Shown: positions 6,450-22,513 of the stretch, in pieces
How the letters are laid out: every line of letters starts with the position of its first letter
Position numbering within the stretch: the first letter of the stretch is position 1
Source: Ruminococcus sp.
GTDB lineage: Bacteria; Bacillota; Clostridia; Oscillospirales; Ruminococcaceae
Reading direction: 5' to 3'
Assembly: GCA_031262105.1 (NCBI GenBank)
Contig: JAISIH010000083.1
Span: 3,219 to 67,218, forward strand
Length of the DNA: 64,000 nucleotides
Program-made: the position numbers and the translations under genes
Notes under the pieces: model-generated
What the model was told of the DNA's origin: nothing
What the model saw: only the letters and a program-made list of their open reading frames with translations
Databases searched by the model: none

Positions 6450-8843
6450 ATGCCGAATGATCCGATTGGATATAAATTGACCTTCTGTAAAAAGCTCTCA
6501 GCGCTTGATAACCCTGTACCCGGTGTGGCATTTGAATATCTAACATTGGCGCACTTCGATGGGATTTTTATAAATGAAATAAAGTGCGTTAGTGATTATA
6601 AAAAGACGTGTTCGGACATCCTACAAGATGGAATAAAGTGGGGCGACCTAACAGCCGACAAACAGAATAAGTTAAATTTTCTTGCGCATTGCGAAAAACA
6701 GGTCGTAAATATCATAACAGAAAACGTCAATAATGATGTGTTAAGTAATCACGATATGCCGATTATGGTGGTCACACTTTTAAATTTCAGTGATGAAAAC
6801 AATTGCAGAAGCCAAAAAATAAATAGTATAAAGAATGCTCTCCAGAATTATATCGGAAATTTAAGTGTCGATTTTGGGGTTTATATGCCGCTGTCTATAG
6901 AGGATTTAGCAATTGTTTTTAAATCCTATACTCTTGAAAGTATTTTAAAGCTTATTACTAATCTAAGAAATCACAAATGTTTTGCTGACGTTATGAATAT
7001 GTATTCCGTAATTTCTTTAGACACAAATTCTGATAAACCCGCTCAGATCGAGGAAATTAACACTTATATAAAGATTCAGGCGGTTCCCCCGACAAGTTTT
7101 CGCGAAATAGCAGATAATTTACCTTCGGTTACGCCGATTGGTGAAGAACGTAATTATAATGACACTAAAGTTGCGGTCGGAAAATATGATATGTATCATA
7201 GAATATCCATAAAAAACACAATGAACTATTATTTTAATTTATACAGAAATATTCTTGATACAAATTCATGCATTTCAAAAAAGTTAGGCGTGTTATCCAC
7301 AGAAACTATAGTAATTAAACCGCTTAACGAGAGCGGTGAAAAAAATCATTTTACCAACCAATTTGCATTTAGCGGAAATATCAATAAACAAAAAAGTTGG
7401 AATGAATGGTATAGACGATTCGAAGAATGTTGGAATAAAGAGTGGGACAAAGGTAATAAAAGTGAAACTAAGAAAAAATATAAAGAATGGTTCCCTACTC
7501 TTTATAAATTTTCTGGTATGCTTAGTGGTCGTGCTCATCGTATATCACACGCTGTTTCTTCTTATAAGTATTTCGAACCATTTTGGGAATTTATTTCTGA
7601 AATAACGAAATTTATTCCGGAATTTATAAAGAGTGAATCAAAAAGAGAAAACTATAATCGCAGCGTTCTAACTGTAAGTGATGAAATCAGATCATTGATT
7701 ACCGGAATTGACGATGTCTTTTCGACGTCTTTCCATGATTTTGAGCAATCGCAAAAAGATGGGTTATGCGTTCACTCTGCCGGAAAGCTTATGGTTGCAT
7801 ATCGGAATTTTGCTGAATTTTTAGGTAATCAATTATTATCTGTTATAGGTCACGACGGTAGACACATTTATTTTTCAATTGTTTCAGCAATAACAGAGAC
7901 CACAAAAATAAACAGATATGACATTAAAGAGAATAAAACGAATAATACATTCTTAACAATACATATGCCGTTTTCAAATATTTACGATTTTCGTGCGGCG
8001 ATTTTTAAGATTTGCCATGAAATTGGGCATTTAATATACGTCACTGATGCTGAAAAAAGCAGATTCAAGGATATATGTAATGAAGGATTAGAGATAGAGA
8101 GTATTAGATTCAGTAATCCCAAAATAGTACATCAACTTAATAAAATACTTGATGAATTTTACGAGGAATTCGCTGCTGATTACTATGCAATTAAAATATT
8201 AGGGCTTGATGTTCTTTATAGTGATCCAAAGCACGATAAAGATGCTGTTTTGAATCAAATTCAAGAAATATTCATGACTGAACTTAATGATAAACAACGA
8301 GCCGGCGTTAACCTTCGATTCCAAGGTATTCGTTTACTCTTACGCCTTCAACCAATGCTAATAAGGGACAAAAAACATGATTTAAACTTAGACAGTTTAA
8401 TAGCTTGGGCGTATCAACCATCTGATGTAATACAAGAACTACTTAATTCCGTAGCCGAAAATGTTATCCCGGTAATTGGGCAGGTAGGTAGCGCCTCTGT
8501 TATTGTTAAAGAAGCAGTAAAATATGCAACTGACGTTAAAAATGTAGAAGAGTTTATTTACCTCAATACGAATATTAGTGAAAAGATTTTTTCTCCGGCA
8601 GCTCTTTACATTTTAAGGCAAAATGAAGATGTAAAATTAATAAATGACATATATACGATCTTAAATAAAAATAAAAAAGAAAATTCAGAATTTCCTTTTC
8701 AAAATCAAATTAACTTTTTCAAAAGCTATAGGGAGCATTTCTTTGATTATAGAAGCGGGAGCTCTTCATATCGAGATGATGTTGTTCCATTTCGAGATTT
8801 TTTGTTAGCCTTTACCGAGCGCAGAAAATACATAGAACTATGA
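6450..8843 (+). CDS. Large (797 aa) hypothetical protein with an HExxH zinc-metallopeptidase-like module (ImmA/IrrE, M78-like), encoded on a low-GC island
   Basis: Long uninterrupted ORF in strongly A/T-rich DNA. HEIGH lies at nt 8016..8030, and EEFAADYYA at nt 8163..8189 about 49 aa later, resembling the HExxH...ExxANxFA signature. No signal peptide or TM segment is evident. Confidence 0.7.
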   Translation: MPNDPIGYKLTFCKKLSALDNPVPGVAFEYLTLAHFDGIFINEIKCVSDYKKTCSDILQDGIKWGDLTADKQNKLNFLAHCEKQVVNIITENVNNDVLSNHDMPIMVVTLLNFSDENNCRSQKINSIKNALQNYIGNLSVDFGVYMPLSIEDLAIVFKSYTLESILKLITNLRNHKCFADVMNMYSVISLDTNSDKPAQIEEINTYIKIQAVPPTSFREIADNLPSVTPIGEERNYNDTKVAVGKYDMYHRISIKNTMNYYFNLYRNILDTNSCISKKLGVLSTETIVIKPLNESGEKNHFTNQFAFSGNINKQKSWNEWYRRFEECWNKEWDKGNKSETKKKYKEWFPTLYKFSGMLSGRAHRISHAVSSYKYFEPFWEFISEITKFIPEFIKSESKRENYNRSVLTVSDEIRSLITGIDDVFSTSFHDFEQSQKDGLCVHSAGKLMVAYRNFAEFLGNQLLSVIGHDGRHIYFSIVSAITETTKINRYDIKENKTNNTFLTIHMPFSNIYDFRAAIFKICHEIGHLIYVTDAEKSRFKDICNEGLEIESIRFSNPKIVHQLNKILDEFYEEFAADYYAIKILGLDVLYSDPKHDKDAVLNQIQEIFMTELNDKQRAGVNLRFQGIRLLLRLQPMLIRDKKHDLNLDSLIAWAYQPSDVIQELLNSVAENVIPVIGQVGSASVIVKEAVKYATDVKNVEEFIYLNTNISEKIFSPAALYILRQNEDVKLINDIYTILNKNKKENSEFPFQNQINFFKSYREHFFDYRSGSSSYRDDVVPFRDFLLAFTERRKYIEL

Positions 8844-8846
8844 AAA

Positions 8847-8872
8847 AAGAGGCATGGTTAGATATGCCTCTT
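8847..8872. terminator. Bidirectional intrinsic terminator shared by the 797-aa gene (+) and the purH-like gene (-)
   Basis: aagaggcat / atgcctctt 9-bp stem, flanked by an A-run on the left and a T-run on the right. Confidence 0.7.
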
Positions 8873-8919
8873 TTGTTTTATTTTGTTGTTACCTTACTCG
8901 CGGTGTTCCACATGGAACA

Positions 8920-10113
8920 TTAATGATGAAATAATCTTATCCCCGTAAACGCCATAGCCATGTTATATTTGTTACAGGTTTCGATAACGTTGTCGTCGCG
9001 GATTGAGCCGCCGGGTTCTGCAATGTATTTCACGCCGGAGCGATAGGCGCGTTCGATGTTGTCGCCGAAGGGGAAGAACGCGTCGGAGCCGAGGGCGACG
9101 TCTGTGTTTGTTTTAAGCCATGCTTTTTTTGCTTCGCGTGTGAATTCTGCCGGCTTTACCTTGAAGATGTTCTGCCAAACGCCGTCGGCGAGGACTTCGT
9201 CGGAGTCGTCGGAGATGTAGACGTCGATTGCGTTGTCGCGGTCGGGGCGGCGGATATTGTCCGCAAACTGCAGCCCGAGGACTTCGGGGGACTGCCGCAG
9301 ATACCAGTTATCGGCTTTTTGCCCGGCGAGGCGGGTGCAGTGGATTCGAGACTGCTGACCGGCGCCGATTCCGATTGCCTGACCGTCTTTTACGTAGCAG
9401 ACGGAGTTCGACTGCGTGTATTTTAGGGTTATCAGCGAGATTATAAGATCCTCTAATTTGTCGGCGGGGATATTCTTGTTTTCGGTTACGATATTTTGGA
9501 GCAAATCGGCGTTGATTTTAAGTTCGTTTCTGCCCTGTTCAAAGGTTACGCCGAAGACATCTTTTGTTTCAATCGGCGCGGGAACATAGCTTTCGTCGAT
9601 TTTTACTATGCAATACGTGCCTTTGCGCTTGCTTTTTAGGATTTCGAGAGCCTTTTGGCTGTAGCCCGGGGCGATTATGCCATCCGAAACCTCGACCTGA
9701 ATTAGCTTTGCTGTCGATTCGTCGCACTCGTCCGAGAGGGCGATAAAGTCGCCGTAAGATGACATTCTGTCCGCGCCTCTTGCCCTTGCATATGCGCAAG
9801 CTAAGGGGCTTAGTTCCCCGTCACCTGTGAAATAAATCTTACGGAGCGTGTCTGACAGGGGTCTGCCGACCGCTGCGCCGGCGGGGGAGACGTGCTTGAA
9901 GCTTGTCGCGGCGGGTAAGCCTGTCGCCGCCTTAAGTTCGCGGACAAGCTGCCAGCCATTGAACGCGTCGAGCAGATTTATATAGCCGGGCTTGCCGCAG
10001 AGTACCTCTATGGGGAGGGGGGCGGTGTTTGCGGGGGTTGCGTTCGCGTTTGCGGTTTTGACGTAGACTGACGCGGGTTTCTGATTAGGGTTACAGCCGT
10101 ATTTTAGTTCCAT
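8920..10113 (-). CDS. purH: AICAR formyltransferase (PurH C-terminal-domain-only type)
   Basis: 397 aa. Ends with the canonical GSDAFFPFGDNIE...PGGSIRDDNVI...AMAFTGIRLFHH. It lacks the N-terminal MGS/IMP-cyclohydrolase domain. Confidence 0.85.
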   Translation of the reverse strand: MELKYGCNPNQKPASVYVKTANANATPANTAPLPIEVLCGKPGYINLLDAFNGWQLVRELKAATGLPAATSFKHVSPAGAAVGRPLSDTLRKIYFTGDGELSPLACAYARARGADRMSSYGDFIALSDECDESTAKLIQVEVSDGIIAPGYSQKALEILKSKRKGTYCIVKIDESYVPAPIETKDVFGVTFEQGRNELKINADLLQNIVTENKNIPADKLEDLIISLITLKYTQSNSVCYVKDGQAIGIGAGQQSRIHCTRLAGQKADNWYLRQSPEVLGLQFADNIRRPDRDNAIDVYISDDSDEVLADGVWQNIFKVKPAEFTREAKKAWLKTNTDVALGSDAFFPFGDNIERAYRSGVKYIAEPGGSIRDDNVIETCNKYNMAMAFTGIRLFHH

Positions 10114-10121
10114 TTTTGCAC

Positions 10122-10829
10122 CTACACATTTTTATTTACGATCTTGTCTTGGTATGTTCCTGTCGCAATGTCAATATACCTTACAAAAAGGGAGATTTTA
10201 TTCGCTTCGTTTAGGTTATCCCACAAGCCCTGTGTAAATTCGCCGATGTCGTCGGGGATAGAAATTGCCGTCGGTTCGCCGGAGAAAACCTCAGGCGGGT
10301 TTCCGTCGCACTTATATGTATGGATAAAATGCCCGGTTCCCGCTACTGCCGGCTTGTATGTAAATAAGAAGCGATTGCAGGATTCGGGGTTGCCGCTTGC
10401 AGATTTTAGGATTGAGAGGGCATAGTTAAAATTATTATTCGTTAGCCTTATAATCCCGGAAATTCGCGGGGTATAGATCGGGGGGTCGGGTTCAAATTCC
10501 CGGCATTGTAAGCTTTCTTCAAAGGTTTTTTGAGCGTCGAGCCCGTTATAGATTGTGTCGGTCTGGTCGCCGTTCGTGACTATGGTCTTGTTCCCCAAAA
10601 CGCGAACGGCGTTATAGATTACAAGGCTCGGGTCGGACATCTTCGACGGGTCGAAAGCCTCTGTGCGTATGCCGTCGGCGGTTTTTACGAAGATTCTGTT
10701 GCGGCTGTTTTCACTCCTACCCATGATGAAATAGGCGGTTACAGCGTGCTTGCCGTCAGGGGTTGCTCCTATAATTATACCACGCCCGGGATAGCTATTA
10801 TTTGCAAGTAATTCTTTTATATCCTTCAT
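10122..10829 (-). CDS. IMP cyclohydrolase, PurO-like (archaeal type)
   Basis: About 235 aa, immediately upstream of the formyltransferase-only purH. N-terminal YPGRGIIIG-type sequence. The start is set at MKDIKEL (10829), so it does not overlap peptide gene P1. Confidence 0.7.
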   Translation of the reverse strand: MKDIKELLANNSYPGRGIIIGATPDGKHAVTAYFIMGRSENSRNRIFVKTADGIRTEAFDPSKMSDPSLVIYNAVRVLGNKTIVTNGDQTDTIYNGLDAQKTFEESLQCREFEPDPPIYTPRISGIIRLTNNNFNYALSILKSASGNPESCNRFLFTYKPAVAGTGHFIHTYKCDGNPPEVFSGEPTAISIPDDIGEFTQGLWDNLNEANKISLFVRYIDIATGTYQDKIVNKNV

Positions 10830-10845: not shown

Positions 10846-11145
10846 TTACCAAGCCGCTTGATTCTGGCAGAAGAGTTCCTTTGTTTCCTCATCGAACACA
10901 CTCTTCATGCAAAGGCGGCATAGGCGGTTTTTATTATTAATGTTTGCCGCGTCGAAGTATTCGCAGGTTTCTGCTTTTTCGTTCGGGACGAGTTTATATT
11001 TGGGACCGTTGCAAAAAAGCCCGCCGCCCGTAACCGCGAGGTTTTCAAGCTCTTCGTCCGAAAGGGTTATGTATTTATCCGCCTGTTCGTCTGTAATTTC
11101 TATGCCGCGTTCACGCGCTTTCGCGATTAGTTCATCCTTTTTCAT
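10846..11145 (-). CDS. Array member P1: long-leader double-glycine Cys-rich precursor peptide (99 aa)
   Basis: Leader MKKDELIAKARERGIEITDEQADKYITLSDEELENLAVTGG. The core has C, CEYF, CRLC and C, and ends QAAW. Own GGAGG RBS. Confidence 0.8.
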   Translation of the reverse strand: MKKDELIAKARERGIEITDEQADKYITLSDEELENLAVTGGGLFCNGPKYKLVPNEKAETCEYFDAANINNKNRLCRLCMKSVFDEETKELFCQNQAAW

Positions 11146-11166
11146 GACGATACCTCCATGTAAATT

Positions 11167-11523
11167 CTACCAAGCTTTTTTATTAGTACAGAAGAGTTCC
11201 CCTGTTTCCAGATCGCGCGAACTACTTTTGCAGGCGCGGCATACGCGGGTTTCATTAAAAATGCTTGCCGAGTCGAAGTATTCGCAGTTTTTTGCCCTTT
11301 CGTTCGTGACCGGCTTAGAAAAGGATTCGCCGCAAATGTCCGCGCCGCCGACGATGTTTTCGAGTTCTTCGTCCGAAATAGACGAGTGCTTTATAACTCT
11401 GCCGCCCGAAACGGCGAAGCCTTCAAGCTGTTCATCCGAAAGCACGGAAAATTTCTCCGCCTGTTCGTCTGTGAGAGTTATGCCGCGTTCCGCCGCTTTT
11501 TTTATAAGTTCTTCCTTTTTCAT
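11167..11523 (-). CDS. Array member P2: precursor with two consecutive double-glycine leader motifs (118 aa)
   Basis: MKKEELIKKAAERGITLTDEQAEKFSVLSDEQLEGFAVSGG, then RVIKHSSISDEELENIVGG, then a core with C, CEYF, CRAC and C, ending KKAW. The start is taken at ATG 11523; the track begins at 11538. Confidence 0.75.
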   Translation of the reverse strand: MKKEELIKKAAERGITLTDEQAEKFSVLSDEQLEGFAVSGGRVIKHSSISDEELENIVGGADICGESFSKPVTNERAKNCEYFDSASIFNETRVCRACKSSSRDLETGELFCTNKKAW

Positions 11524-11544
11524 GATGCCGCCTTTCAAAAAGTT

Positions 11545-11862
11545 TTAGTCCGGGTAAGCTTCCTTGCTCTGACAGTAGCAGTATGAGTATTCAAGCCCGC
11601 GAACGGTGCGTTCTTTGGTATAGCAGTGCAGACAATAATTGCATTTGACCGGGTCGCTGTCGGTCGAGTCCGCTCTCCTTACGAAGTATGCGCAGGTTTT
11701 TGCTTCATTTGGGGCAACTCTTTTTCCGTCCTCGCCGCAGCCGCCCGCTACCGCGAGGTTTTCAAGCTCATCGTCCGAAAGGGTTATGTATTTATCCGCC
11801 TGTGTCTCGTCAATCGCTATGCCGCGATCACGCGCCTTTTTAATAAGGTCGTCTTTTTTCAT
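11545..11862 (-). CDS. Array member P3 (105 aa)
   Basis: Leader MKKDDLIKKARDRGIAIDETQADKYITLSDDELENLAVAGG. Core: C...CAYF...CNYCLHC...CYC. Confidence 0.8.
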   Translation of the reverse strand: MKKDDLIKKARDRGIAIDETQADKYITLSDDELENLAVAGGCGEDGKRVAPNEAKTCAYFVRRADSTDSDPVKCNYCLHCYTKERTVRGLEYSYCYCQSKEAYPD

Positions 11863-11880
11863 GATAAAAACCTCCTGTGC

Positions 11881-12198
11881 TTACATATAATTAGAATATA
11901 CGCCTATTTTGCAGTAACAATAGCTCATAGGATATGCGTAAACCCTTTCACTATGTTTGCACGAAAGACAGGTACCATCGTTCTCGTCGTCTTTTTTGCT
12001 GTAACTGGAACAGCGTTTTCCCTTGTTTACATCCTCAACTCTTACGCTGCCTTTCGACGGTTGGCATCGATCTATGCCGCCCGCAACCGCTAAGTTTTCA
12101 AGTTCTTCGTCGGAAAGGGTTATGTATTTGTCCGCCTGTGTCTCGTCGATTTCTATGCCGCGTTCACGCGCCATTTTGATAAGGTCTTCTTTTTTCAT
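11881..12198 (-). CDS. Array member P4 (105 aa)
   Basis: Leader MKKEDLIKMARERGIEIDETQADKYITLSDEELENLAVAGG. Core: C...CSSY...CLSC...CYC. Confidence 0.8.
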   Translation of the reverse strand: MKKEDLIKMARERGIEIDETQADKYITLSDEELENLAVAGGIDRCQPSKGSVRVEDVNKGKRCSSYSKKDDENDGTCLSCKHSERVYAYPMSYCYCKIGVYSNYM

Positions 12199-12214
12199 CT
12201 GTTTGTCCTCCTTC

Positions 12215-12532
12215 TTATTGCCACGCTTCCGCGCAGAGGCAGTAATTTTGTACTATGGGGATATCAAGACTCGGCATCAGGGTTATTGTATCAAAGTGAG
12301 TGCAATAGGTGCATTTTAGCCCTTCATTCGACGGCTTCGCGCTGACAAATTTAGTACAGGTTTGCGCGTAGTTAATATTGTCGAGTTTGTGTCTGTATTT
12401 TTCGTTGCAACCCCCCGCGACCGCAAGGTTTTCAAGCTCGTCATCCGAGAGGGCTATGTATTTATCCGCCTGTGTTTCGTCGATCGCTATGCCGCGTTCA
12501 TGTGCCTTCTTGATAAGGTCTTCTTTTTTCAT
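12215..12532 (-). CDS. Array member P5 (105 aa)
   Basis: Leader MKKEDLIKKAHERGIAIDETQADKYIALSDDELENLAVAGG. Core: C...CTKF...CTYC...CLCAEAWQ. Confidence 0.8.
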   Translation of the reverse strand: MKKEDLIKKAHERGIAIDETQADKYIALSDDELENLAVAGGCNEKYRHKLDNINYAQTCTKFVSAKPSNEGLKCTYCTHFDTITLMPSLDIPIVQNYCLCAEAWQ

Positions 12533-12556
12533 GAAAAATCCTCCTTTATTAATAGC

Positions 12557-12835
12557 TTAAAAAGTTCTTAACTGCGGGTCATGCTCCCAGCCTTTTTCTG
12601 CGCAGGTATGCACCCCGGACACATCTTTAATGTTCGGGCAATTTGTGCAGGTTGAAGTCTTCCAAAACTTCGCTTCGGTTATGCCTTGCGAACACTTTTC
12701 AAGGCAATAATCAGGACCTCCGCCGGCGATGTTTTCAAGCTCTTCGTCCGAGAGGTTTAGGTATTTCTCTGCCTCTGTCTCAGTCAGGGTTATTCCGCGA
12801 GCGGCGGCTTTTTTTATCAGGTCTTCTTTCGTCAT
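12557..12835 (-). CDS. Array member P6 (92 aa)
   Basis: Leader MTKEDLIKKAAARGITLTETEAEKYLNLSDEELENIAGGG. Core: CLEKC...CTNC...C. Confidence 0.8.
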   Translation of the reverse strand: MTKEDLIKKAAARGITLTETEAEKYLNLSDEELENIAGGGPDYCLEKCSQGITEAKFWKTSTCTNCPNIKDVSGVHTCAEKGWEHDPQLRTF

Positions 12836-12850
12836 GATTTCCCTCCGCGC

Positions 12851-13072
12851 TTATACATTTTTTGTACAATGATAGGTAGTGGCTTTGCCGAAACAACCTG
12901 CGGCTTCTACGTAAATGTAGGTGCAGTTATCGCACAGACGTTCGCTGGTCCCCGGCTTCGGCTCGAAGTATTTGCAGTTCTCCGCGATGTCGAATTTAAC
13001 TACAACCCTGTTTGCCCCCGCAGATATGTTTTCAAGTTCTTCATCGGAAAGGTTAATGTTTTCTTTTTTCAT
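12851..13072 (-). CDS. Array member P7: truncated leader (73 aa)
   Basis: MKKENINLSDEELENISAGA lacks the N-terminal helix and has Ala-Gly-Ala (ISAGA) instead of GG at the predicted site. Core: CKYF...CDNC...C...C. The start is set at 13072 to avoid overlap with P8. Confidence 0.7.
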   Translation of the reverse strand: MKKENINLSDEELENISAGANRVVVKFDIAENCKYFEPKPGTSERLCDNCTYIYVEAAGCFGKATTYHCTKNV

Positions 13073-13085
13073 AGTCAAAACCTCA

Positions 13086-13385
13086 CTAATTCCAAGCTTC
13101 TTCAAGGGTACACCAAAGGCTTGAGAGTGTTTCGGAGTCTATCCTTGCGTGGGAGCAATTGCCGCAAATTTGGACAGATCTCTTCGGATCGAAGACACTG
13201 TAGTAACGGCAAGTAAGTGCCTTGTTCCCGTCCGTTATTTCTTTTTTGAAACCGCAGAAGCCTCCGCCCGCTATGTCGAGGTTTTCGAGTTCCTCATCGG
13301 AGAGGTTAACGTACTTCTCCGCCTGTTCCTCGGTTAAGGCTACGCCCTGTTCTGCGGCTTTTTTTATAAGGTCGGACTTTTTCAT
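13086..13385 (-). CDS. Array member P8 (99 aa)
   Basis: Leader MKKSDLIKKAAEQGVALTEEQAEKYVNLSDEELENLDIAGGG. Core: C...CRYY...CGNC...C, ending EEAWN. Confidence 0.8.
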   Translation of the reverse strand: MKKSDLIKKAAEQGVALTEEQAEKYVNLSDEELENLDIAGGGFCGFKKEITDGNKALTCRYYSVFDPKRSVQICGNCSHARIDSETLSSLWCTLEEAWN

Positions 13386-13421
13386 AGCAAACCTCCTTTT
13401 AGTTAACCGGTGCTGTCCGGG

Positions 13422-13715
13422 TTATGCCCTGTAAGTTTTTATGACTGTCATCATCTGATCGCAATGCACAACGGTTGATATCGGTCTGCCGAGGCTATCG
13501 CAGGCACCATAATAGGGAACCTTTATCATCTTTTCCCCGCAGATTTCGCAAATAATATCCATATAAGGTTCAGTGCAAATATCATCCACAAGTCCGCCGC
13601 CGCCCACAATGTTCTCAAGCTCTTCTTCCGAAAGGTTTATGTACTTCTCCGCCTGTTCGTCGGTGAGGGTAATTCCGCGCTCACGCGCCTTTTTTATAAG
13701 GTCTTCTTTTTTCAT
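13422..13715 (-). CDS. Array member P9 (97 aa)
   Basis: Leader MKKEDLIKKARERGITLTDEQAEKYINLSEEELENIVGGGG. Core: C...CEIC...C...C. Confidence 0.8.
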   Translation of the reverse strand: MKKEDLIKKARERGITLTDEQAEKYINLSEEELENIVGGGGLVDDICTEPYMDIICEICGEKMIKVPYYGACDSLGRPISTVVHCDQMMTVIKTYRA

Positions 13716-13729
13716 GGTTTACCCTCCTG

Positions 13730-13957
13730 TTAATTCCACGCTTCTGCGCAGGTGCAATAAAGGCTGCTCGAGGTTCGTTTTACCTTTTTACAGCGGTCGC
13801 ACTGCTTATAATTTCTTTCTATGTCGGTTTCGTAGTAACTGCATTTTTCCGCTTCATAGCCCATGACATACTTATTAAATTTAACCGCCCCGCCCGAAAC
13901 GGTTAAGTTTTCAAGCTCCTCTTCCGATACAGCCGGTTTTTGTGCTTCTTTTTCCAT
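13730..13957 (-). CDS. Array member P10: second leader class (75 aa)
   Basis: Leader MEKEAQKPAVSEEELENLTVSGG. Core: CSYY...CDRC...CTCAEAWN. Confidence 0.75.
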   Translation of the reverse strand: MEKEAQKPAVSEEELENLTVSGGAVKFNKYVMGYEAEKCSYYETDIERNYKQCDRCKKVKRTSSSLYCTCAEAWN

Positions 13958-13978
13958 AAGTTTACCTCCGATAAAATA

Positions 13979-14272
13979 TTACACATTCCGTGCGAATAAA
14001 ACCATTCTGTTAACTTCGGTATTTGAGCAGAAAATCTGCCCGGTTTCATAATTACCGTAGTAGTCGCACGACCAGCAGTTTTGCTTCACGCCCGGCGTCG
14101 GATTTGCCCCGTGCCACTTGCCGCATATCATTCCGGCAGTATCGGCGTTGTTTATCAAGACAAACGAATCGTCGTACACCATCTCTCCGAATGCAGGAGA
14201 GCTCCCTGCGCCGCCGGCAACTGCGTCAAGCTCTTCTTCCGATACAGCCGGCTTTTGCACTTCTTTTTCCAT
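13979..14272 (-). CDS. Array member P11: second leader class (97 aa)
   Basis: Leader MEKEVQKPAVSEEELDAVAGG. Core: C...CWSC...C. The start is set at ATG 14272 (GGGAGGG RBS), 20 nt after the purN stop. The track ORF extends into purN. Confidence 0.7.
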   Translation of the reverse strand: MEKEVQKPAVSEEELDAVAGGAGSSPAFGEMVYDDSFVLINNADTAGMICGKWHGANPTPGVKQNCWSCDYYGNYETGQIFCSNTEVNRMVLFARNV

Positions 14273-14292: not shown

Positions 14293-14871
14293 CTATAACT
14301 TCGCACAAAGTTTTTCTACCGCTTCCGGCAGGATGACCCATTCTGCCTCTTCCATGACGCGTCTCTGTAACGTCTCGGGGGTGTCATTGTCCCTTACCTC
14401 GACCGCCTTTTGTGCCAGAATCGGTCCGCCGTCACATTCGGGCGTTACAATATGCACTGTCGCGCCGGTTATCTTTACGCCGCGTTTTAAGGCTTCTTCA
14501 TGCACCTTTAAGCCGTAATATCCGACGCCGCAAAAACTCGGGATTAACGCCGGGTGGACATTAACTATCCGCCCCTTGAAAACCGCGCAAAAGCTGTCGT
14601 CGAGGACTGTCATAAACCCCGCGAGGACTATTACGTCGATATCCTGCTCCAAAAAAAGCTGTATAAGTTCTTCGGAATAACTTTTGCTGTCGGGGAAATT
14701 CTTGCGCGGGAGGGTTAACGTCTTAATCCCGGCGTTCTCGGCGCGGGTTAAGGCAAAAGCCCCCTCCTTGCTCGAAACAACAAGAACAATCTCGCCGCTT
14801 TTTAGCTTATAGTCAATGAGTGCCTGTAAATTCGTTCCCCCGCCCGAGACCAAGACCGCTATTCTTTTCAT
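14293..14871 (-). CDS. purN: Phosphoribosylglycinamide formyltransferase
   Basis: MKRIAVLVSGGGTNLQALID start, NVHPALIP motif, position after purM. Confidence 0.9.
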   Translation of the reverse strand: MKRIAVLVSGGGTNLQALIDYKLKSGEIVLVVSSKEGAFALTRAENAGIKTLTLPRKNFPDSKSYSEELIQLFLEQDIDVIVLAGFMTVLDDSFCAVFKGRIVNVHPALIPSFCGVGYYGLKVHEEALKRGVKITGATVHIVTPECDGGPILAQKAVEVRDNDTPETLQRRVMEEAEWVILPEAVEKLCAKL

Positions 14872-14875
14872 AATC

Positions 14876-15916
14876 CTAAAGCCCGTTCACAACGATTTTT
14901 TCATCGCCGGTCGAGATTTCGCCCAAGACATAGCTTTCCTCGCCCGCCGCATTAAGGGTTGCAATAGCCCGCTCTGCATCTTCCGGCGCGGTAACAATTA
15001 CCATTCCCACGCCCATATTGAACGTGTTATACATATCGCGGATGGGTATCTTGCCCGTTTCCATAATCAGGTCGAAAATCGGGAGCGTTTTAACGTTCGC
15101 AATATCAATATTCGCGCAAAGCCCGTCTTTTATCGCACGGGGAATGTTCTCGAAAAAGCCGCCGCCGGTTATATTGGCGATGCCTTTAACGTTAACCTTC
15201 GAGATAAGCTCTAAAATCGGTTTAACGTAAATTTTCGTCGGGACCAAAAGCGCGTCGCCCAAGTTCTGCCCGATTTCGGAATAGTGGCGCGAGATGTTCT
15301 GGTGGTTAAGCGCGAAGACCTTCCGTACCAGCGAAAAGCCGTTTGAATGAAGCCCGGAAGACCGCACGGCAATTAAAACGTCGCCGGCTTTTTGCCCCTC
15401 GGTCGAGATTATCTTTTTCTTATCGACAATCCCGACAGCGAAACCGGCGATGTCGTATTCGTCCTCGGGATAAAAATCCGGCATCTCCGCCGTCTCCCCT
15501 CCGACGAGGGCGCATCCCGCCTGAACACAGCCGTCCGCAACGCCCTTCACAATCTGTTCAATCCGCAGCGGAATATTCTTCCCGCAGGCGATATAATCGA
15601 GGAAGAAAAGCGGTTTCGCTCCCGCGCAGATTATGTCATTAACACACATGGCAACCGCGTCAATCCCGATTGTGTTATGGCGGTCGGTTAAGAACGCCGC
15701 CTTGAGTTTTGTCCCCACGCCGTCGGTCCCCGAAACGAGGACAGGTTCTTCCATCCCGGCGAAATCCGGCGCGAAAAGCCCGCCGAAGCCGCCGATGTCC
15801 GTCAAAACCCCGGGAACGCGCGTTCTTGCGACGTGTTTTTTTATAAGTTCGGTCGATTCATACCCGGCGGTAATGTCCACGCCGGCTTCTTTATAACTAT
15901 CTGAAAAGCTGTACAT
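14876..15916 (-). CDS. purM: Phosphoribosylformylglycinamidine cyclo-ligase (AIR synthetase)
   Basis: YKEAGVDI, GIGGFGGLF-type and DGVGTK motifs; 346 aa. Confidence 0.95.
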   Translation of the reverse strand: MYSFSDSYKEAGVDITAGYESTELIKKHVARTRVPGVLTDIGGFGGLFAPDFAGMEEPVLVSGTDGVGTKLKAAFLTDRHNTIGIDAVAMCVNDIICAGAKPLFFLDYIACGKNIPLRIEQIVKGVADGCVQAGCALVGGETAEMPDFYPEDEYDIAGFAVGIVDKKKIISTEGQKAGDVLIAVRSSGLHSNGFSLVRKVFALNHQNISRHYSEIGQNLGDALLVPTKIYVKPILELISKVNVKGIANITGGGFFENIPRAIKDGLCANIDIANVKTLPIFDLIMETGKIPIRDMYNTFNMGVGMVIVTAPEDAERAIATLNAAGEESYVLGEISTGDEKIVVNGL

Positions 15917-15967: not shown

Positions 15968-15996
15968 ATTATACGATATTAAATTTCATTTGTCAA
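15968..15996 (-). promoter_or_regulatory. Consensus sigma-A-type promoter for the purM operon
   Basis: On the minus strand: TTGACA (15996..15991), a 17-nt spacer, then TATAAT (15973..15968). It lies about 50 nt upstream of the purM ATG. Confidence 0.6.
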
Positions 15997-17196: not shown

Positions 17197-18489
17197 TTAC
17201 AGTGTCTCCGCTACTGCCGCTGCAATCTTAGTGCGGTCTACTACGCCCCAGAATGCGGGTTTTGCTATGAGGTCGCGGTCGAAGAGGAGGGGGTGGTTGG
17301 TTCTGCCGGTTACGGGGTAGTCGTTTAGCCATGTCATGCCGTCGTTGAAGCCCCACATTATTACTGCTTCGAGGTTGCCTTTTGCGGCTTCTTCGCGGAA
17401 CATATCGAAGAGGTCGGCGTAACGTTCGGCGAGCATTGTTTCATTCTCTGCGTTCATGTCGATGGTTTTGCTCTGGTCGTTCCATGAGTACATTGAGACG
17501 TCGAGTTCGGTTACTTGAATTATGAGGTCGGGGTTAAGCTCTTTGAGGGTCGCGAGCTTTTCGATGGCTGCCTTGAAATTATTGACATCAGGCCAGCCGA
17601 TTTGAATGTGGGCTTGGATGCCTACGCCGTCTATCGGAACGCCCTGTTCGAGCATTGATTTGACCGCTTCATAGAAGGAGTTTAACTTGTTCGGGTCTTG
17701 TTCTAAGCTGTAGTCGTTGATGATAAGCTTCGCGTCGGGGTCTGCGGCGCGGGCAATGTAGAATGCCTGCTCCATGAAGTCGTATTCGTCACCGTCGCCG
17801 TCAAGGTCGCCGACGATGCCGGGCCAGAACGAGCCCTCGCCCATCTCACGCATACCCCTGCCGGAGTCGGAAAATGCCTCGTTCACGACGTCGTAGTAAG
17901 CAATCTTGCCTTTATAACGCCCCATGACTGTGTTTATGTATTCGGTCATGCGGGCGATAAGCTCGTCGGAGGTTGCCCTGCCGTCTTCTCCGCTGCCCTC
18001 AAACCACCACTGCGGCGCTTGGGAATGCCAAACGAGGGTGTGTCCGCGAAGCTTTACTTCGGGATTCTCTTCGCCGAACTTTACGAATAAATCGGGGGCG
18101 GTGAAGTCGAAAACGCCCTTCGCGGGGTTAACGTACATGGGCTTCATCTCGTTTTCGGTCGTGAAGATGTTGTAGTGCTTCTTGATAATTTCGGCGGAGG
18201 CTGTTCCGTCTTCAAGCTGAACTGTGTTAACCGCTGTTCCTATGAGGAAATCGTCTGCAAACACGTCTTTGAGGTTCGGGAGTGCCTCTGCGTAGGCGGG
18301 GAGGCGATATTCTTTTCCGTCAAATTTACTTTCAAGGGTTGTAACTTCCGGGGTTTCGGCGGTTGCTTGTCCGGCTGTGGTTTGATCGACTGCCGGCGCT
18401 ATTGTTGTGTTATCTCCTGCGGTTACTGTGCAGGCGGTGAGCAGCATTGTTAATGCAAGCGCGGCGACTGCGGGCTTAAAAAATTTCAT
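17197..18489 (-). CDS. GH10 endo-1,4-beta-xylanase, lipoprotein
   Basis: Lipobox LLTAC at the N-terminus. GH10 motifs HTLVWHSQ, DVVNEA (acid/base Glu) and ITELDV (nucleophile Glu). Confidence 0.9.
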   Translation of the reverse strand: MKFFKPAVAALALTMLLTACTVTAGDNTTIAPAVDQTTAGQATAETPEVTTLESKFDGKEYRLPAYAEALPNLKDVFADDFLIGTAVNTVQLEDGTASAEIIKKHYNIFTTENEMKPMYVNPAKGVFDFTAPDLFVKFGEENPEVKLRGHTLVWHSQAPQWWFEGSGEDGRATSDELIARMTEYINTVMGRYKGKIAYYDVVNEAFSDSGRGMREMGEGSFWPGIVGDLDGDGDEYDFMEQAFYIARAADPDAKLIINDYSLEQDPNKLNSFYEAVKSMLEQGVPIDGVGIQAHIQIGWPDVNNFKAAIEKLATLKELNPDLIIQVTELDVSMYSWNDQSKTIDMNAENETMLAERYADLFDMFREEAAKGNLEAVIMWGFNDGMTWLNDYPVTGRTNHPLLFDRDLIAKPAFWGVVDRTKIAAAVAETL

Positions 18490-22081: not shown

Positions 22082-22513
22082 TTATTCACTTTCTATTAAT
22101 TTTAGAAATTCTTCCGGGGAAACTCCTTTAACTTCGGAGGCGGTGTAGTCTTTTAGGTTGCGGGTAACTATGAATTCGGCGTTTTCTTTCACCGCGCAAA
22201 GCATCTGCAAGCGATCCTCGAAATCTTTGTATTGCGGTTCATCTAAAGCACGTATTGTCATTCCGCTCTCAACCTCGCTGACACGGAACAGATAACAAAG
22301 CCCTAACAAAGTATTTCTGATATTTTTGGGATAATCTATTTTCTTTTTGTCTTTGCTTAAAAGATAAAACATATTCGCAACGCATTGTGTAGTAATAATT
22401 CCGATGAATCTGTGCCGGTGTTTATACTCAATTATCTTCGCGGCGTTCTCATAAAAAGGTTCGCGCCTTTGCGCATAATCCATCAAAACGTCGGTATCAA
22501 TCAATACGACCAT
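22082..22513 (-). CDS. PIN-domain toxin (VapC-like)
   Basis: Starts VVLIDTDVLMDY (first acidic PIN residue). It overlaps the upstream small gene by 17 nt, a typical TA layout. Confidence 0.7.
   Translation of the reverse strand: MVVLIDTDVLMDYAQRREPFYENAAKIIEYKHRHRFIGIITTQCVANMFYLLSKDKKKIDYPKNIRNTLLGLCYLFRVSEVESGMTIRALDEPQYKDFEDRLQMLCAVKENAEFIVTRNLKDYTASEVKGVSPEEFLKLIESE

What the first reader, a model, noticed from the sequence alone, without database searches (positions are those of the whole stretch)
10846..14272. Eleven tandem paralogous genes for long-leader, double-glycine, Cys-rich peptides
Eleven same-strand ORFs of 73-118 aa are packed 13-36 nt apart, each with its own RBS. Eight of them (P1-P6, P8, P9) start with an almost invariant N-terminus of about 40 aa: MKKEDLIKKAxERGIxhT/DxEQAxKYhxLSDEELENh(AV)xGG. 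After the GG the sequences become nearly unalignable. LSxxELxxIxGG is the textbook double-glycine leader of class II bacteriocins and ComC-type peptides, which C39-peptidase ABC exporters cleave. The extra upstream helix (LIKKAxxRGIxLTxEQ) resembles, from my memory of the family, the C-terminal half of Nif11-type RiPP leaders (TIGR03798, the prochlorosin 'one leader, many cores' paradigm). Conserved leaders with diversified cores in a tandem array are the hallmark of a combinatorial secreted-peptide system. However, the cores here are long (about 45-60 aa), and no maturase, exporter or immunity gene is adjacent. I do not recognise this family as a described one.
Basis: partly seen in the sequence, partly recalled or inferred. 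Interest (0 to 1): 0.9.

Follow-up and report, generated by a model that had tools for sequence, protein, structure and literature searches.

The report
Cysteine-rich export-leader peptide array in purine operon
A termite-gut Ruminococcus carries eleven back-to-back genes for small cysteine-rich proteins that all start with the same export-and-cleavage tag. They are wedged inside an essential purine-synthesis operon, and they form a previously undescribed family that is probably secreted but whose exporter and function are still unknown.

Summary
Eleven minus-strand genes (10846-14272; 73-118 aa; gaps of 13-36 nt, ten with a GGAGG-type ribosome-binding site and T10 with a weak one) all carry a double-glycine leader motif. 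That motif gives 12 DNA matches against 0.4 expected by chance.

- **Leader:** it matches only secreted-peptide precursor families, best the C-terminal half of Nif11-type leaders, and always below the curated cut-offs.
- **Cores:** they are not unalignable. Nine of the eleven share four invariant cysteines, C-x12-18-CxxC-x6-20-C, often ending in (E)AW.

- **Position:** the array is a clean 3.4-kb insertion between purN and the IMP cyclohydrolase gene. It appears to be transcribed from the purM promoter.
- **Conservation:** the same site holds 6-20 such genes in three related Hodotermes-gut Ruminococcus genomes. It is empty in three sister genomes.
- **Rarity:** the family has about 40 clusters among 5.8 billion proteins, and the core domain occurs nowhere else.
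- **Selection:** both leaders and orthologous cores are under purifying selection.

No exporter, maturase or immunity gene lies in the window or in six other loci.

My best reading is an accessory repertoire of small cysteine-stabilised cargo proteins, exported and cleaved by an unlinked C39-peptidase ABC transporter. This is a new variant of a known kind. The function is unproven.

The parts
15968..15996 (-). Sigma-70-type promoter TTGACA-17-TATAAT (12 of 12 matches), about 50 nt upstream of purM. It is the only strong sense-strand promoter for the whole purM...purH block.
   Evidence: An identical perfect promoter lies upstream of purM in L001.
14876..15916 (-). purM (AIR synthase), first gene of the operon.
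   Evidence: ORF. Orthologues carry PF00586/PF02769. 80% nt identity to L001.
14293..14871 (-). purN (GAR formyltransferase). Its stop codon lies 18 nt before the T1 start codon.
   Evidence: Orthologues carry PF00551. Homology to array-less sister genomes ends at about 14313.
13979..14272 (-). T1, 97 aa. Short leader MEKEVQKPAVSEEELDAVAGG (14210-14272) with canonical V(-12)/E(-8)/L(-7)/V(-4)/GG. The 76-aa core has 4 Cys and a C-terminal ...RMVLFARNV.
   Evidence: The core is 82% identical in protein and 86.6% in DNA to L004 gene 3, which has a long leader.
13730..13957 (-). T2, 75 aa. Short leader MEKEAQKPAVSEEELENLTVSGG (13889-13957, the type with two extra residues before GG). The 52-aa core belongs to the main Cys4/(E)AW family.
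   Evidence: Its 5' end is 88% identical to that of T1 over 56 nt (D7).
13422..13715 (-). T3, 97 aa. Long canonical leader ...LSEEELENIVGG (13599-13715). The 58-aa core has 5 Cys (C-x9-CxxC-x12-C-x13-C) and is a singleton core type.
   Evidence: TIGR01847 15.5 bits against a cut-off of 15.7; TIGR03798 18.3 bits.
13086..13385 (-). T4, 99 aa. Long leader ...ENLDIAGG (13263-13385). The 58-aa core is in the main family and ends CTLEEAWN.
   Evidence: Orthologue L001 gene 18: core 75% identical, dN/dS 0.23. AlphaFold2 model mean pLDDT 63.6.
12851..13072 (-). T5, 73 aa. Minimal leader MKKENINLSDEELENISAG (13016-13072), with Ala-Gly in place of Gly-Gly. The 54-aa core is in the main family.
12557..12835 (-). 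T6, 92 aa. Long canonical leader ...LSDEELENIAGG (12719-12835). The 53-aa core is a separate type (CxxxC-x14-CxxC-x12-C...GW).
   Evidence: Best Nif11-leader match: TIGR03798 26.1 bits, E 7.7e-6, cut-off 32.3. Orthologues L001 gene 19 and P0022.
12215..12532 (-). T7, 105 aa. Long leader ...ENLAVAGG (12410-12532). The 64-aa core is in the main family, has 6 Cys and ends CLCAEAWQ.
   Evidence: Compared with T9, the leader is 90% identical in protein but the core only 31%.
11881..12198 (-). T8, 105 aa. Long leader ...ENLAVAGG (12076-12198). The 64-aa core is in the main family and has 6 Cys.
11545..11862 (-). T9, 105 aa. Long leader ...ENLAVAGG (11740-11862). The 64-aa core is in the main family and has 7 Cys.
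11167..11523 (-). T10, 118 aa. Long leader ending ...LEGFAVSGG, then RVIKHSS, then a second canonical motif ISDEELENIVGG (leader region 11344-11523). The 58-aa core is in the main family and ends KKAW.
   Evidence: Both motifs are found at the DNA level (11423-11439 and 11360-11376). Its core is a recent paralogue of the T11 core, with dS 0.31 and dN/dS 1.27.
10846..11145 (-). T11, 99 aa. Long leader ...ENLAVTGG (11023-11145). The 58-aa core is in the main family and ends QAAW. It is the last gene of the array, 16 nt before the purO start codon.
10122..10829 (-). IMP cyclohydrolase gene (archaeal-type PurO, PF07826). Homology to array-less sister genomes resumes at about 10843.
8920..10113 (-). 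purH-like AICAR formyltransferase gene (PF01808 in orthologues), last gene of the operon.
8845..8874 (.). 12-bp palindromic hairpin flanked by A- and T-runs, between purH and the convergent 797-aa ORF. Probably a terminator for both directions; the scan reported it on the + strand only.

Best explanation
This is a lineage-specific accessory array of eleven precursor genes. Each encodes a double-glycine export leader fused to a hydrophilic cysteine-rich cargo of about 50-76 aa. The leader is a shortened Nif11-like form: a helix/Gly-Ile/helix part followed by LSDEELENxxGG.

The array is a 3.4-kb insertion between purN and the IMP cyclohydrolase gene. It is most likely transcribed as part of purM-purN-[array]-purO-purH from the purM promoter, so the peptides would be made whenever de novo purine synthesis is switched on.

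After translation, the amphipathic helix just before the GG would be bound by the C39 peptidase domain of a peptidase-containing ABC transporter (PCAT) encoded elsewhere in the genome. That transporter would cut after GG and export the unfolded cargo. Outside the cell the four invariant Cys would stabilise a small domain, either through two disulfides or through a metal site. A fifth Cys near the new N-terminus would stay free for another role.

Shown here: the gene anatomy, the leader's similarity to precursor families, the Cys4 scaffold, purifying selection, the conserved insertion site with variable content, and the lack of linked partner genes.

Inferred: co-transcription, cleavage and export by a PCAT, and the folded state of the cargo. 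The biological role, whether interbacterial competition, signalling or a surface or extracellular effector in the termite gut, is also inferred.
For: 1. **Leader matches.** Apart from a few weak hits to unrelated enzyme families, every weak profile hit to the leader is to a double-glycine bacteriocin or RiPP precursor family. These are TIGR03798 (best 26.1 bits, E 7.7e-6), TIGR01847 (15.5 bits against a cut-off of 15.7), the CTB family, lactococcin G, lacticin 481 and class IIb families.
2. **Short leaders keep the recognition motif.** The three short-leader genes in the window, and four more in L001, have lost the N-terminal helices. They still keep the last 12-15 residues, (L/V)S(D/E)EEL(E/D)xx..GG. 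LahT150 needs only the last 13 leader residues (PMC6363468). PCAT1 reads L(-12)xxxE(-8)L(-7)xxxxG(-2)G(-1) (PMC6959990).
3. **Canonical register.** T1, T3, T6 and the second motif of T10 fit that consensus residue for residue. T5 also fits, with Ala-Gly at the cleavage site.
4. **Cargo size has precedent.** The median core is 61 aa across 68 members. The CtA cargo is 66 aa, the PCAT1 cavity makes no specific contact with its cargo, and MAM of the related genus Faecalibacterium is a 113-aa PCAT cargo (PMC6959990, PMC12184118).
5. **The genes are real and functional.** Leader dN/dS is mostly 0.06-0.3 (up to about 0.5 in pairs involving T10), with dS of 0.3 to >2. Orthologous cores have dN/dS 0.23-0.38.
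6. **Accessory, fast-turnover behaviour.** The same site holds 11, 20, 14 and 6 genes in four genomes that form a clade. It is empty in three sister genomes. One cassette, the T1 core, has dS 0.26 while its flanking genes have dS 1.25-2.4.
7. **Modular use of the leader.** The same leader precedes at least four unrelated core types, including true zinc-ribbon cores (PF09723) in relatives.
8. **Operon structure.** A perfect promoter lies only upstream of purM in both the window and L001. No sense-strand terminator lies inside either array.
9. **Predicted shape.** AlphaFold2 predicts three leader helices and a disordered linker at residues 37-43, which contains the GG.
Against: - No C39 ABC exporter, accessory protein or immunity gene is in the 64-kb window (all ORFs of at least 120 aa were scanned). 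None is in the flanks of six other loci either. The rest of the genome could not be searched.
- Six of the eleven leaders, and 33 of 68 family-wide, have two extra residues before the GG (ENLAVAGG). This puts the Leu residues at -9/-14 instead of the -7/-12 that form the 'hydrophobic knot' with the peptidase (PMC6959990).
- No profile hit reaches a curated cut-off.
- The cargos are hydrophilic (GRAVY -0.54) and uncharged (mean net charge -0.2), unlike membrane-active bacteriocins.
- A site inside a housekeeping operon is not where export substrates are usually encoded.
- The 40-aa leader, with a strongly conserved N-terminal part, is longer than unmodified class II leaders need. That hints at a second binding partner.
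- Structure prediction gave no confident fold, with pLDDT 63.6 and 47.7.
Confidence: 0.5

Rival explanations
1. The genes encode RiPP precursors. The conserved N-terminal helix pair of the leader would dock an unlinked maturase, such as a radical-SAM/SPASM thioether-forming enzyme (sactipeptide or ranthipeptide type) or a ProcM-like LanM. That enzyme would cross-link the conserved Cys before a PCAT removes the leader. This is a 'one enzyme, many cores' system like the prochlorosins. It differs from the best explanation only in adding a modification step.
For: - The leader is about 40 aa long, and its N-terminal part is under strong purifying selection (dN/dS about 0.1). That part is not needed for PCAT recognition, since short-leader paralogues exist.
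- The best profile match is to Nif11-type RiPP leaders.
- The modal Cys count is odd: 5 Cys in 37 of 68 members. This fits thioether chemistry better than all-disulfide pairing.
- Nif11-type precursors are known to lie far from their LanM (PMC2887384).
Against: - No radical-SAM, LanM or cyclodehydratase gene is in the window or in any of the other loci.
- The cores are 2-3 times longer than typical Nif11-type cores, which average about 26 aa (PMC2887384).
- The cores look like a conserved small domain, with invariant Cys spacing and aromatic positions.
- Some relatives have canonical zinc-ribbon cores (PF09723), which need no modification.
- The short-leader members would escape modification yet share the same Cys4 scaffold.
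Confidence: 0.22
2. The products are cytoplasmic small metal-binding (zinc-ribbon-like or Fe-S) proteins. The conserved N-terminus is a small helix-loop-helix domain and the GG is only a flexible linker. They would act inside the cell, possibly in connection with the purine operon that carries them.
For: - The array sits in, and is probably co-transcribed with, a housekeeping operon.
- No exporter was found.
- The cores are hydrophilic and neutral, with a C...CxxC...C pattern, often CxxCxH.
- There are weak zinc-finger or HiPIP-like hits: zf-DPOE 19.5 bits against a cut-off of 21, Zn_Ribbon_TF E 0.009, HPIP_like E 0.09.
- Some relatives carry PF09723 zinc ribbons.
- Half of the leaders break the canonical PCAT register.
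Against: - Truncated paralogues drop the supposed N-terminal domain but always keep the 12-15 residues that end in GG. That makes sense for a cleavage signal and not for a linker.
- T10 carries two such motifs in tandem.
- Nearly all leader profile hits are to exported precursors, and none is to an intracellular domain. The best PDB hit is a chance-level E 0.03 to dihydroorotase.
- Copy number of 0-20 per genome, presence or absence among sister species, and cassette exchange are typical of accessory competition or communication genes, not of metabolic partners.
- The core domain exists nowhere without this leader: only 12 hits among 1.84 billion representatives, all family members.
Confidence: 0.2
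3. The ORFs are non-functional: decaying duplicates, or an artefact of ORF calling in repetitive DNA.
For: There is no expression data. The structure predictions have low confidence.
Against: - All eleven ORFs are intact with proper spacing; ten have a GGAGG-type ribosome-binding site and T10 only a weak one.
- dN/dS is well below 1 in leaders and in orthologous cores, despite saturated synonymous sites.
- The four Cys are invariant in all 43 members of the main core family, across four species.
- The long ORFs on the opposite strand are antisense shadows of these genes.
Confidence: 0.02

Closest known systems
Nif11-derived leader peptide precursors (N11P, TIGR03798), e.g. the prochlorosin ProcA peptides and LahA1-9 of Lachnospiraceae C6A11
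   Same: The leader is conserved, ends in ...LSDEELExxxGG, and has an upstream helix-Gly-helix (..A..GI.lt.e....) that aligns to profile positions 28-68 of TIGR03798. There are many paralogues per genome, variable Cys-rich C-terminal parts, and the genes can lie far from the processing genes (PMC2887384, PMC6363468).
   Different: Scores stay below the cut-off (at most 26.1 bits against 32.3). The N-terminal half of the Nif11 domain is absent, so the leader is 39-41 aa rather than about 68-80. The cores are 50-76 aa with a conserved Cys4 scaffold, rather than about 20-30 aa of free-form sequence. No LanM, cyclodehydratase or C39 transporter gene is nearby. The host is a termite-gut Ruminococcus, and the array lies inside the pur operon.
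Unmodified PCAT cargo proteins: CtA/PCAT1 of Acetivibrio (Clostridium) thermocellum, and MAM with its PCAT in Faecalibacterium
   Same: A double-glycine leader is followed by a cargo that is a small protein rather than a short peptide: 66 aa in CtA and 113 aa in MAM, against a median of 61 aa here. The hosts are Clostridia related to Ruminococcus. The cargos are not obviously antimicrobial (PMC6959990, PMC12184118).
   Different: CtA and MAM are single genes next to their PCAT. Here there are 6-20 paralogues and no adjacent PCAT. The leaders here are longer (about 40 aa against 21-24). Half of them carry a 2-residue insertion before the GG. The cargos are Cys-rich.
Class II (double-glycine leader) bacteriocins and ComC/BlpC-type pheromones (TIGR01847, PF10439, PF03047)
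   Same: The cleavage-site consensus LSxxELxxIxGG is present. It fits residue for residue in T1, T3, T6 and the second motif of T10, and in T5 with Ala-Gly at the cleavage site.
   Different: All scores are below the cut-offs. There is no adjacent PCAT, accessory, immunity or two-component gene. The mature parts are hydrophilic and uncharged rather than cationic or amphiphilic, and are twice as long.
Small zinc-ribbon proteins (PF09723, the FmdB/CxxC_CxxC_SSSS family)
   Same: Some family members outside the window (P0027, P0030, P0038) have cores that match PF09723. The window cores keep four Cys at comparable spacing and give weak zinc-finger hits.
   Different: The window cores have C...CxxC...C rather than two CxxC knuckles. 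The profile comparison between the main core family and the zinc-ribbon cores is not significant (hhalign probability about 1%). Known zinc ribbons carry no double-glycine leader.

Membership tests
Nif11-like leader peptide RiPP precursors (TIGR03798) | Whole-protein score at or above the curated cut-off of 32.3 bits | tested here: not met
   The best score is 26.1 bits (T6, E 7.7e-6). Seven of the 10 window proteins tested hit at E<=0.13. Nine of 22 family members hit at E<=0.01, and none reaches the cut-off.
Nif11-like leader peptide RiPP precursors (TIGR03798) | Full-length Nif11-derived leader (about 68 profile positions) ending in Gly-Gly | tested here: not met
   Only profile positions 28-68 are matched and the leaders are 39-41 aa. 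The Gly-Gly end of the leader is present.
Nif11-like leader peptide RiPP precursors (TIGR03798) | Paralogous expansion, with family-wide similarity ending at the GG and a short, variable, Cys/Gly/Ser-rich core | tested here: inconclusive
   The expansion is present (6-20 copies) and conservation drops at the GG. However, the cores are long (median 61 aa) and 43 of 68 share an invariant Cys4 scaffold.
Nif11-like leader peptide RiPP precursors (TIGR03798) | Co-occurrence in the genome with LanM or a cyclodehydratase, and with the TIGR03794/03796/03797 transport genes | not testable with these tools
   None is present in the 64-kb window or in the flanks of six related loci. The rest of the genome assembly could not be searched.
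Double-glycine leader substrates of PCAT exporters (class II bacteriocins, CtA, MAM) | Consensus L/I/V(-12)-x3-E(-8)-L(-7)-x2-hydrophobic(-4)-x-G(-2)-G(-1) | tested here: inconclusive
   The consensus is met exactly in T1, T3, T6 and the second motif of T10, and in T5 with Ala-Gly. T2, T4, T7, T8, T9 and T11 have two extra residues, giving Leu at -9/-14 while hydrophobic(-4) and GG are kept. Family-wide the split is 31 canonical to 33 extended (consensus from PMC6959990).
Double-glycine leader substrates of PCAT exporters (class II bacteriocins, CtA, MAM) | Profile membership (TIGR01847 cut-off 15.7; PF10439 cut-off 27.1; PF03047 cut-off 20.4) | tested here: not met
   The best scores are 15.5 for TIGR01847 (T3), 14.0 for PF10439 (T10) and 13.5 for PF03047 (T3).
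Double-glycine leader substrates of PCAT exporters (class II bacteriocins, CtA, MAM) | A cognate C39-peptidase ABC transporter, usually adjacent | tested here: not met
   Adjacency is not met. No Peptidase_C39 or ABC exporter is among the window ORFs of at least 120 aa, or in the other loci. Presence elsewhere in the genome is not testable here.
Class II bacteriocins | A cationic and/or hydrophobic mature peptide with a linked immunity gene | tested here: not met
   The core net charge has mean -0.2 and range -5 to +3, and GRAVY is -0.54. Every gene between purN and purO is a family member, so there is no immunity-like gene.
Zinc-ribbon proteins (PF09723 and related) | Two CxxC knuckles and a profile score above the cut-off | tested here: not met
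   The window cores have C-x12-18-CxxC-x6-20-C. The best zinc-finger hits are below their cut-offs (zf-DPOE 19.5 against 21; Zn_Ribbon_TF 16 against 29). PF09723 is on record only for relatives P0027, P0030 and P0038.
Sactipeptide, ranthipeptide or lanthipeptide precursors | A linked radical-SAM/SPASM or Lan synthetase gene | tested here: not met
   None is present in the window or in the related loci. Presence at genome level is not testable here.

The most novel reading that the evidence does not exclude
A clade of termite-gut Ruminococcus secretes, through a double-glycine/PCAT route, a rapidly diversifying repertoire of folded, metal- or disulfide-stabilised mini-proteins built on an orphan Cys4(+1) scaffold. 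Their expression is hard-wired to de novo purine synthesis because the genes sit in the middle of the essential purM-purH operon. That position may also shield the array from deletion. This would be a new class of PCAT cargo, and a new way of coupling a secreted effector repertoire to nucleotide starvation.
Probability: 0.2. Interest if true: 0.75.

Novelty: new variant of a known kind. Interest (0 to 1): 0.55.

Why it matters
If these proteins are exported, the family extends the 'one leader, many cargos' logic of prochlorosins and class II bacteriocins to domain-sized, cysteine-scaffolded cargos of 50-90 aa in anaerobic gut Firmicutes. It would also add a third, multi-copy example to the short list of protein-sized PCAT substrates (CtA and MAM).

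The two leader variants, canonical and with two extra residues, occur side by side. They are a natural test of how strictly C39 peptidase domains read the -7/-12 register.

The conserved position inside an essential purine operon is unusual for accessory genes. The site holds 0-20 genes in closely related species, and sister genomes carry toxin-antitoxin pairs elsewhere in the same operon. This makes a testable case for coupling secreted-effector expression to nucleotide starvation, or for essential operons acting as safe harbours for accessory genes.

On the practical side, the leader and scaffold could be used as an export tag and as a library scaffold.

Tried and rejected
1. **Structure prediction.** AlphaFold2 on T4 with a 22-sequence alignment gave mean pLDDT 63.6. 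Only the three leader helices and the disordered GG linker are interpretable. The core-only model had pLDDT 47.7. Foldseek against the PDB found nothing at E<=0.001. No fold could be assigned.
2. **PDB sequence search with the family profile.** The best hit was E 0.03 to the dihydroorotase domain of CAD. Similar weak NCBIfam hits to dihydropyrimidinase and allantoinase cover the helix-Gly-strand motif. I judged these to be chance resemblance. They are not significant and cover only the leader.
3. **Core-only profile against 1.84 billion representative proteins.** It returned only family members, so no outgroup and no functional lead.
4. **Leader-only profile search.** It was rejected twice on parameter limits. 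The accepted run scored only 9 candidates and found 2 family members.
5. **Other collections.** The metagenome-contig scan, the viral-contig scan, and tblastn against phages and plasmids found no relatives. There was one chance-level Rhizobium hit at E 0.04.
6. **Finding the exporter.**
   - All window ORFs of at least 120 aa were scanned against Pfam, and the flanks of six other loci were inspected. None holds a C39, ABC exporter, rSAM or LanM gene.
   - Look-ups meant to reach the 4 kb of the contig outside the window failed.
   - The second locus of this genome (P0029) could not be retrieved.
7. **RNA regulation.** Rfam found no riboswitch or other RNA family in the window.
8. **Homology between core types.** hhalign of the main family against the zinc-ribbon, T6 and T3 types was not significant, at about 1% probability or less. 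The Cys columns do line up.
9. **Long + strand ORFs.** The ORFs at 10907-11548 and 11626-12093 were rejected as antisense shadows of the repeated leader sequence.
10. **Lipoprotein signal.** The ..AGG|C junction was considered as a lipobox and rejected. There is no hydrophobic signal segment and the -3 to -1 residues do not fit.

Full report
**Observation**

The region 10846-14272 holds eleven ORFs on the minus strand. I number them T1 to T11 in the direction of transcription.
- They are 73-118 aa long and 13-36 nt apart. Ten have a GGAGG-type ribosome-binding site; T10 has only a weak one.
- Eight start with a roughly 40-aa N-terminus, MKKEDLIKKAxERGIxLTxEQAEKYIxLSDEELENxxxxGG, with 80% mean column identity.
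- T1, T2 and T5 keep only the last 12-15 residues of it.
- The DNA that encodes S-D/E-E-E-L-E occurs 12 times, all inside the array and all on the minus strand. The twelfth copy is a second motif inside T10. Only 0.40 matches are expected by chance, and none of 100 shuffles reached 12.
- A 137-nt unit covering the leader and ribosome-binding site is repeated eight times at 66-86% identity.

**Correction: the cores are alignable**

- An alignment of 22 diverse family members has four invariant core cysteines.
- In the largest core cluster (43 of 68 known members; nine of the eleven window genes, all except T3 and T6) all four Cys are present in every member.
- The spacing is C-x12-18 (median 14)-C-x2-C-x6-20 (median 15)-C.
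- There is Tyr/Phe at +2/+3 after the first Cys, an aromatic residue before the last Cys, often Thr-Asn after it, and a Trp in the last 12 residues in 28 of 43 members.
- In 53 of 68 members there is a further Cys within six residues of the GG. The commonest Cys count is therefore five (37 members), followed by six (20 members).
- The cores are hydrophilic (GRAVY -0.54), have no net charge on average, and have a median length of 61 aa.

**What the leader resembles**

No window protein reaches the curated cut-off of any Pfam or NCBIfam model. Apart from a few weak hits to unrelated enzyme families, the sub-threshold hits are all of one kind:
- TIGR03798 (Nif11-like leader) over profile positions 28-68 of 68. 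The best score is 26.1 bits with E 7.7e-6, against a cut-off of 32.3. Nine of 22 members hit it at E<=0.01.
- The generic double-glycine signature TIGR01847, at 15.5 bits against a cut-off of 15.7.
- Several double-glycine bacteriocin and lantibiotic families.

Membership fails.

I compared the leaders with the experimentally defined PCAT recognition consensus, L(-12)xxxE(-8)L(-7)xxxxG(-2)G(-1). In that consensus the -7/-12 residues form the hydrophobic knot and -4 sets specificity (PMC6959990). The last 13 leader residues suffice for LahT150 (PMC6363468).
- T1, T3, T6 and the second motif of T10 fit exactly. T5 fits with Ala-Gly.
- T2, T4, T7, T8, T9 and T11 have two extra residues (ENLAVAGG). 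The hydrophobic -4 and the GG are kept, but the leucines move to -9/-14.
- Family-wide the two forms are equally common, 31 to 33.
- The short-leader paralogues have lost the N-terminal helices but always keep this C-terminal motif. To me this is the strongest internal evidence that the motif is the functional signal.

- The array lies between purN (14293-14871) and the archaeal-type IMP cyclohydrolase gene purO (10122-10829). purM is upstream and a purH-type AICAR formyltransferase gene is downstream.
- A perfect TTGACA-17-TATAAT promoter sits about 50 nt upstream of purM. There is no strong sense-strand promoter, and no terminator, inside the array.
- No riboswitch or other Rfam family was found.
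- The window is otherwise core chromosome. It carries secY, adk, map, rpsK, rpsD, rpoA, rplQ, secA, metG, mreBCD, penicillin-binding proteins, citrate synthase and flagellar genes.
- Every ORF of at least 120 aa was scanned against Pfam. None is a C39 peptidase, ABC exporter, radical-SAM enzyme or lanthionine synthetase.

**Distribution**

- A profile of the eleven proteins found only 40 clusters among 5.8 billion.
- All named hits are 'hypothetical protein [Ruminococcus sp.]' from metagenome-assembled genomes. The contigs retrieved come from a single JGI sample, 3300042599. The isolate label Hm464 belongs to a Hodotermes termite-gut metagenome.
- The window itself is the 68-kb contig of the MAG with locus tags LBM59_.
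- The same purN|array|purO arrangement recurs in three further genomes. There are 20 genes in L001 (Hm464_bin138), 14 in L004 (Hm464_bin171) and 6 in L005. Every gene between purN and purO is a family member.
- L001 has the same perfect promoter upstream of purM, and again nothing inside the array.
- Singletons occur elsewhere: L008 next to mnmE, L003, and P0029 in the window's own MAG. None has a transporter nearby.
- Three sister genomes from the same sample (PurO 80-81% identical to the window's) have purN directly abutting purO.
- By BLASTN, their homology to the window stops at about 14313 and resumes at about 10843. This brackets the array exactly.
- By purM and purN identity, the four array-bearing genomes form one clade and the three empty ones form another. 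A single gain followed by in-situ expansion and turnover is the simplest history.
- The family is absent from the phage, plasmid, viral-contig and metagenome-contig collections.
- A core-only profile run against 1.84 billion representatives found only family members. The cargo domain therefore does not exist detectably without this leader.

**Selection and turnover**

- Leaders are conserved by purifying selection rather than by recent copying. Among window paralogues the leader dN/dS is mostly 0.06-0.3, rising to about 0.5 in pairs involving T10, while dS is 0.3 to more than 2.
- Neighbouring T7, T8 and T9 have somewhat lower leader dS (0.4-0.8) alongside saturated cores. T1 and T2 share an 88%-identical 5' end. 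Both point to local gene conversion.
- Orthologous cores in different species have dN/dS 0.23-0.38. The cores therefore encode functional proteins.
- The one recent paralogue pair, T10 and T11, has core dN/dS 1.27 at dS 0.31. This comes from 58 codons and is suggestive only.
- The T1 core is 86.6% identical in DNA to a gene in L004 (dS 0.26). The flanking pur genes of the same two genomes have dS 1.25-2.4. The L004 gene has a long leader and T1 a short one. That cassette looks recently exchanged, with a breakpoint in the leader.
- T10, with two GG motifs in tandem, looks like a similar fusion.
- BLAST clustering of cores gives one main family (43 members), a zinc-ribbon type (7 members, some with PF09723 on record), a T6 type (3 members) and several singletons including T3.
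- Profile-profile comparison between the types is not significant. The leader is thus used modularly on more than one kind of cargo.

**Mechanism**

I commit to the following. The genes are co-transcribed with purM, purN, purO and purH. The precursors are recognised through the helix that precedes the GG by the C39 domain of an unlinked peptidase-containing ABC transporter. They are cut after GG and exported unfolded. The cargo then folds into a small Cys-stabilised domain.

The cargo size is not an obstacle. The native PCAT1 substrate CtA has a 24-residue leader and a 66-residue cargo, and the transporter cavity makes no specific contact with the cargo (PMC6959990). MAM of Faecalibacterium is a 113-aa cargo with an adjacent PCAT (PMC12184118).

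The exporter, the cleavage, the folded state and the biological role are all inferred. I give this explanation 0.5.

The main rivals are:
- **Modified RiPP precursors (0.22).** The same export route, but with a prior modification by an unlinked maturase. This is favoured by the long leader with its selectively constrained N-terminal part and by the odd Cys count. It is disfavoured by the domain-like cores and by the absence of any maturase at seven loci.
- **Cytoplasmic metal-binding mini-proteins (0.2).** This is favoured by the housekeeping-operon context, the missing exporter and the zinc-ribbon relatives. It is disfavoured by the truncated paralogues that keep only the GG motif, by the profile hits being essentially all to exported precursors, and by the accessory and hypervariable behaviour of the array.

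**Structure**

AlphaFold2 gave only low-confidence models, at pLDDT 63.6 for full-length T4 and 47.7 for the core alone. The predicted leader has three helices (residues 3-12, 19-25 and 30-38) and a disordered stretch at 37-43 that contains the GG. Foldseek and a PDB sequence search gave nothing meaningful.

**Novelty and score**

The export logic is known. Several things are new:
- an orphan Cys4(+1) cargo family;
- a shortened Nif11-like leader in two register variants;
- a position inside an essential operon at a site conserved across species, with 0-20 genes;
- the complete lack of linked partner genes.

No paper in the held library describes this family. I rate it a new variant of a known kind, with interest 0.55. 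The anatomy and evolution are solid and unusual. The function rests on inference, and the decisive genome-wide exporter search could not be run here.

Noticed in passing
window 6450-8843 (+): A 797-aa ORF has no Pfam or NCBIfam match. It lies in a 32% GC stretch, while the rest of the window is about 44-52% GC, between rplQ and purH. L011 has an 816-aa gene with no Pfam match in the same position. This looks like a variable, possibly foreign island.
   Followed up: partly
L009 7970-8280; L010 6973-8288; L011 7058-8360: In the array-less sister genomes the pur operon carries one or two MNT (NTP_transf_2)/HepT toxin-antitoxin pairs between purF and purM; in L009 only a 52-aa MNT fragment and an unannotated 49-aa ORF remain. 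The pur operon therefore seems to be a hotspot for accessory-gene insertion in this Ruminococcus lineage.
   Followed up: partly
window 13945-14242 vs L004 4091-4389: The T1 core cassette is 86.6% identical in DNA (dS 0.26) between two species whose flanking pur genes are 74-82% identical (dS 1.25-2.4). The two copies have different leader lengths. This looks like recent exchange of a cassette between species.
   Followed up: yes
window 11344-11442 (T10 leader end): T10 carries two double-glycine motifs in tandem...LSDEQLEGFAVSGG, then RVIKHSS, then ISDEELENIVGG. The first is the extended type and the second the canonical type. This looks like a fusion of a full leader onto a short-leader gene.
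   Followed up: partly
L001 8560-8718, 10623-10832, 11755-11964: Three members of the 20-gene array have short cores (13-31 aa) with a single Cys at or next to the C-terminus (...NFCD...VQIC...DLCD). This core type is absent from the window.
   Followed up: no
window 10907-11548 and 11626-12093 (+): Long + strand ORFs of 213 and 155 aa are antisense shadows of the peptide genes. Their repeated 'SSSSSERVMYLSAC' is the reverse complement of the leader. They are not genes.
   Followed up: yes
window 22082-22513 (-) and 56806-57630 (+): There is a PIN_3-domain protein next to a DUF1015 gene, and a PDDEXK_2 (Rpn-type nuclease/transposase family) gene. These are further accessory elements in an otherwise core chromosomal stretch.
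   Followed up: no
window 17197-18489, 24460-28086, 28366-31842 (-): A GH10 xylanase gene lies near two genes for surface proteins of about 1,200 aa with Ig-like, CBM_X2 and InlB B-repeat domains. This fits a fibre-degrading termite-gut Ruminococcus.
   Followed up: no
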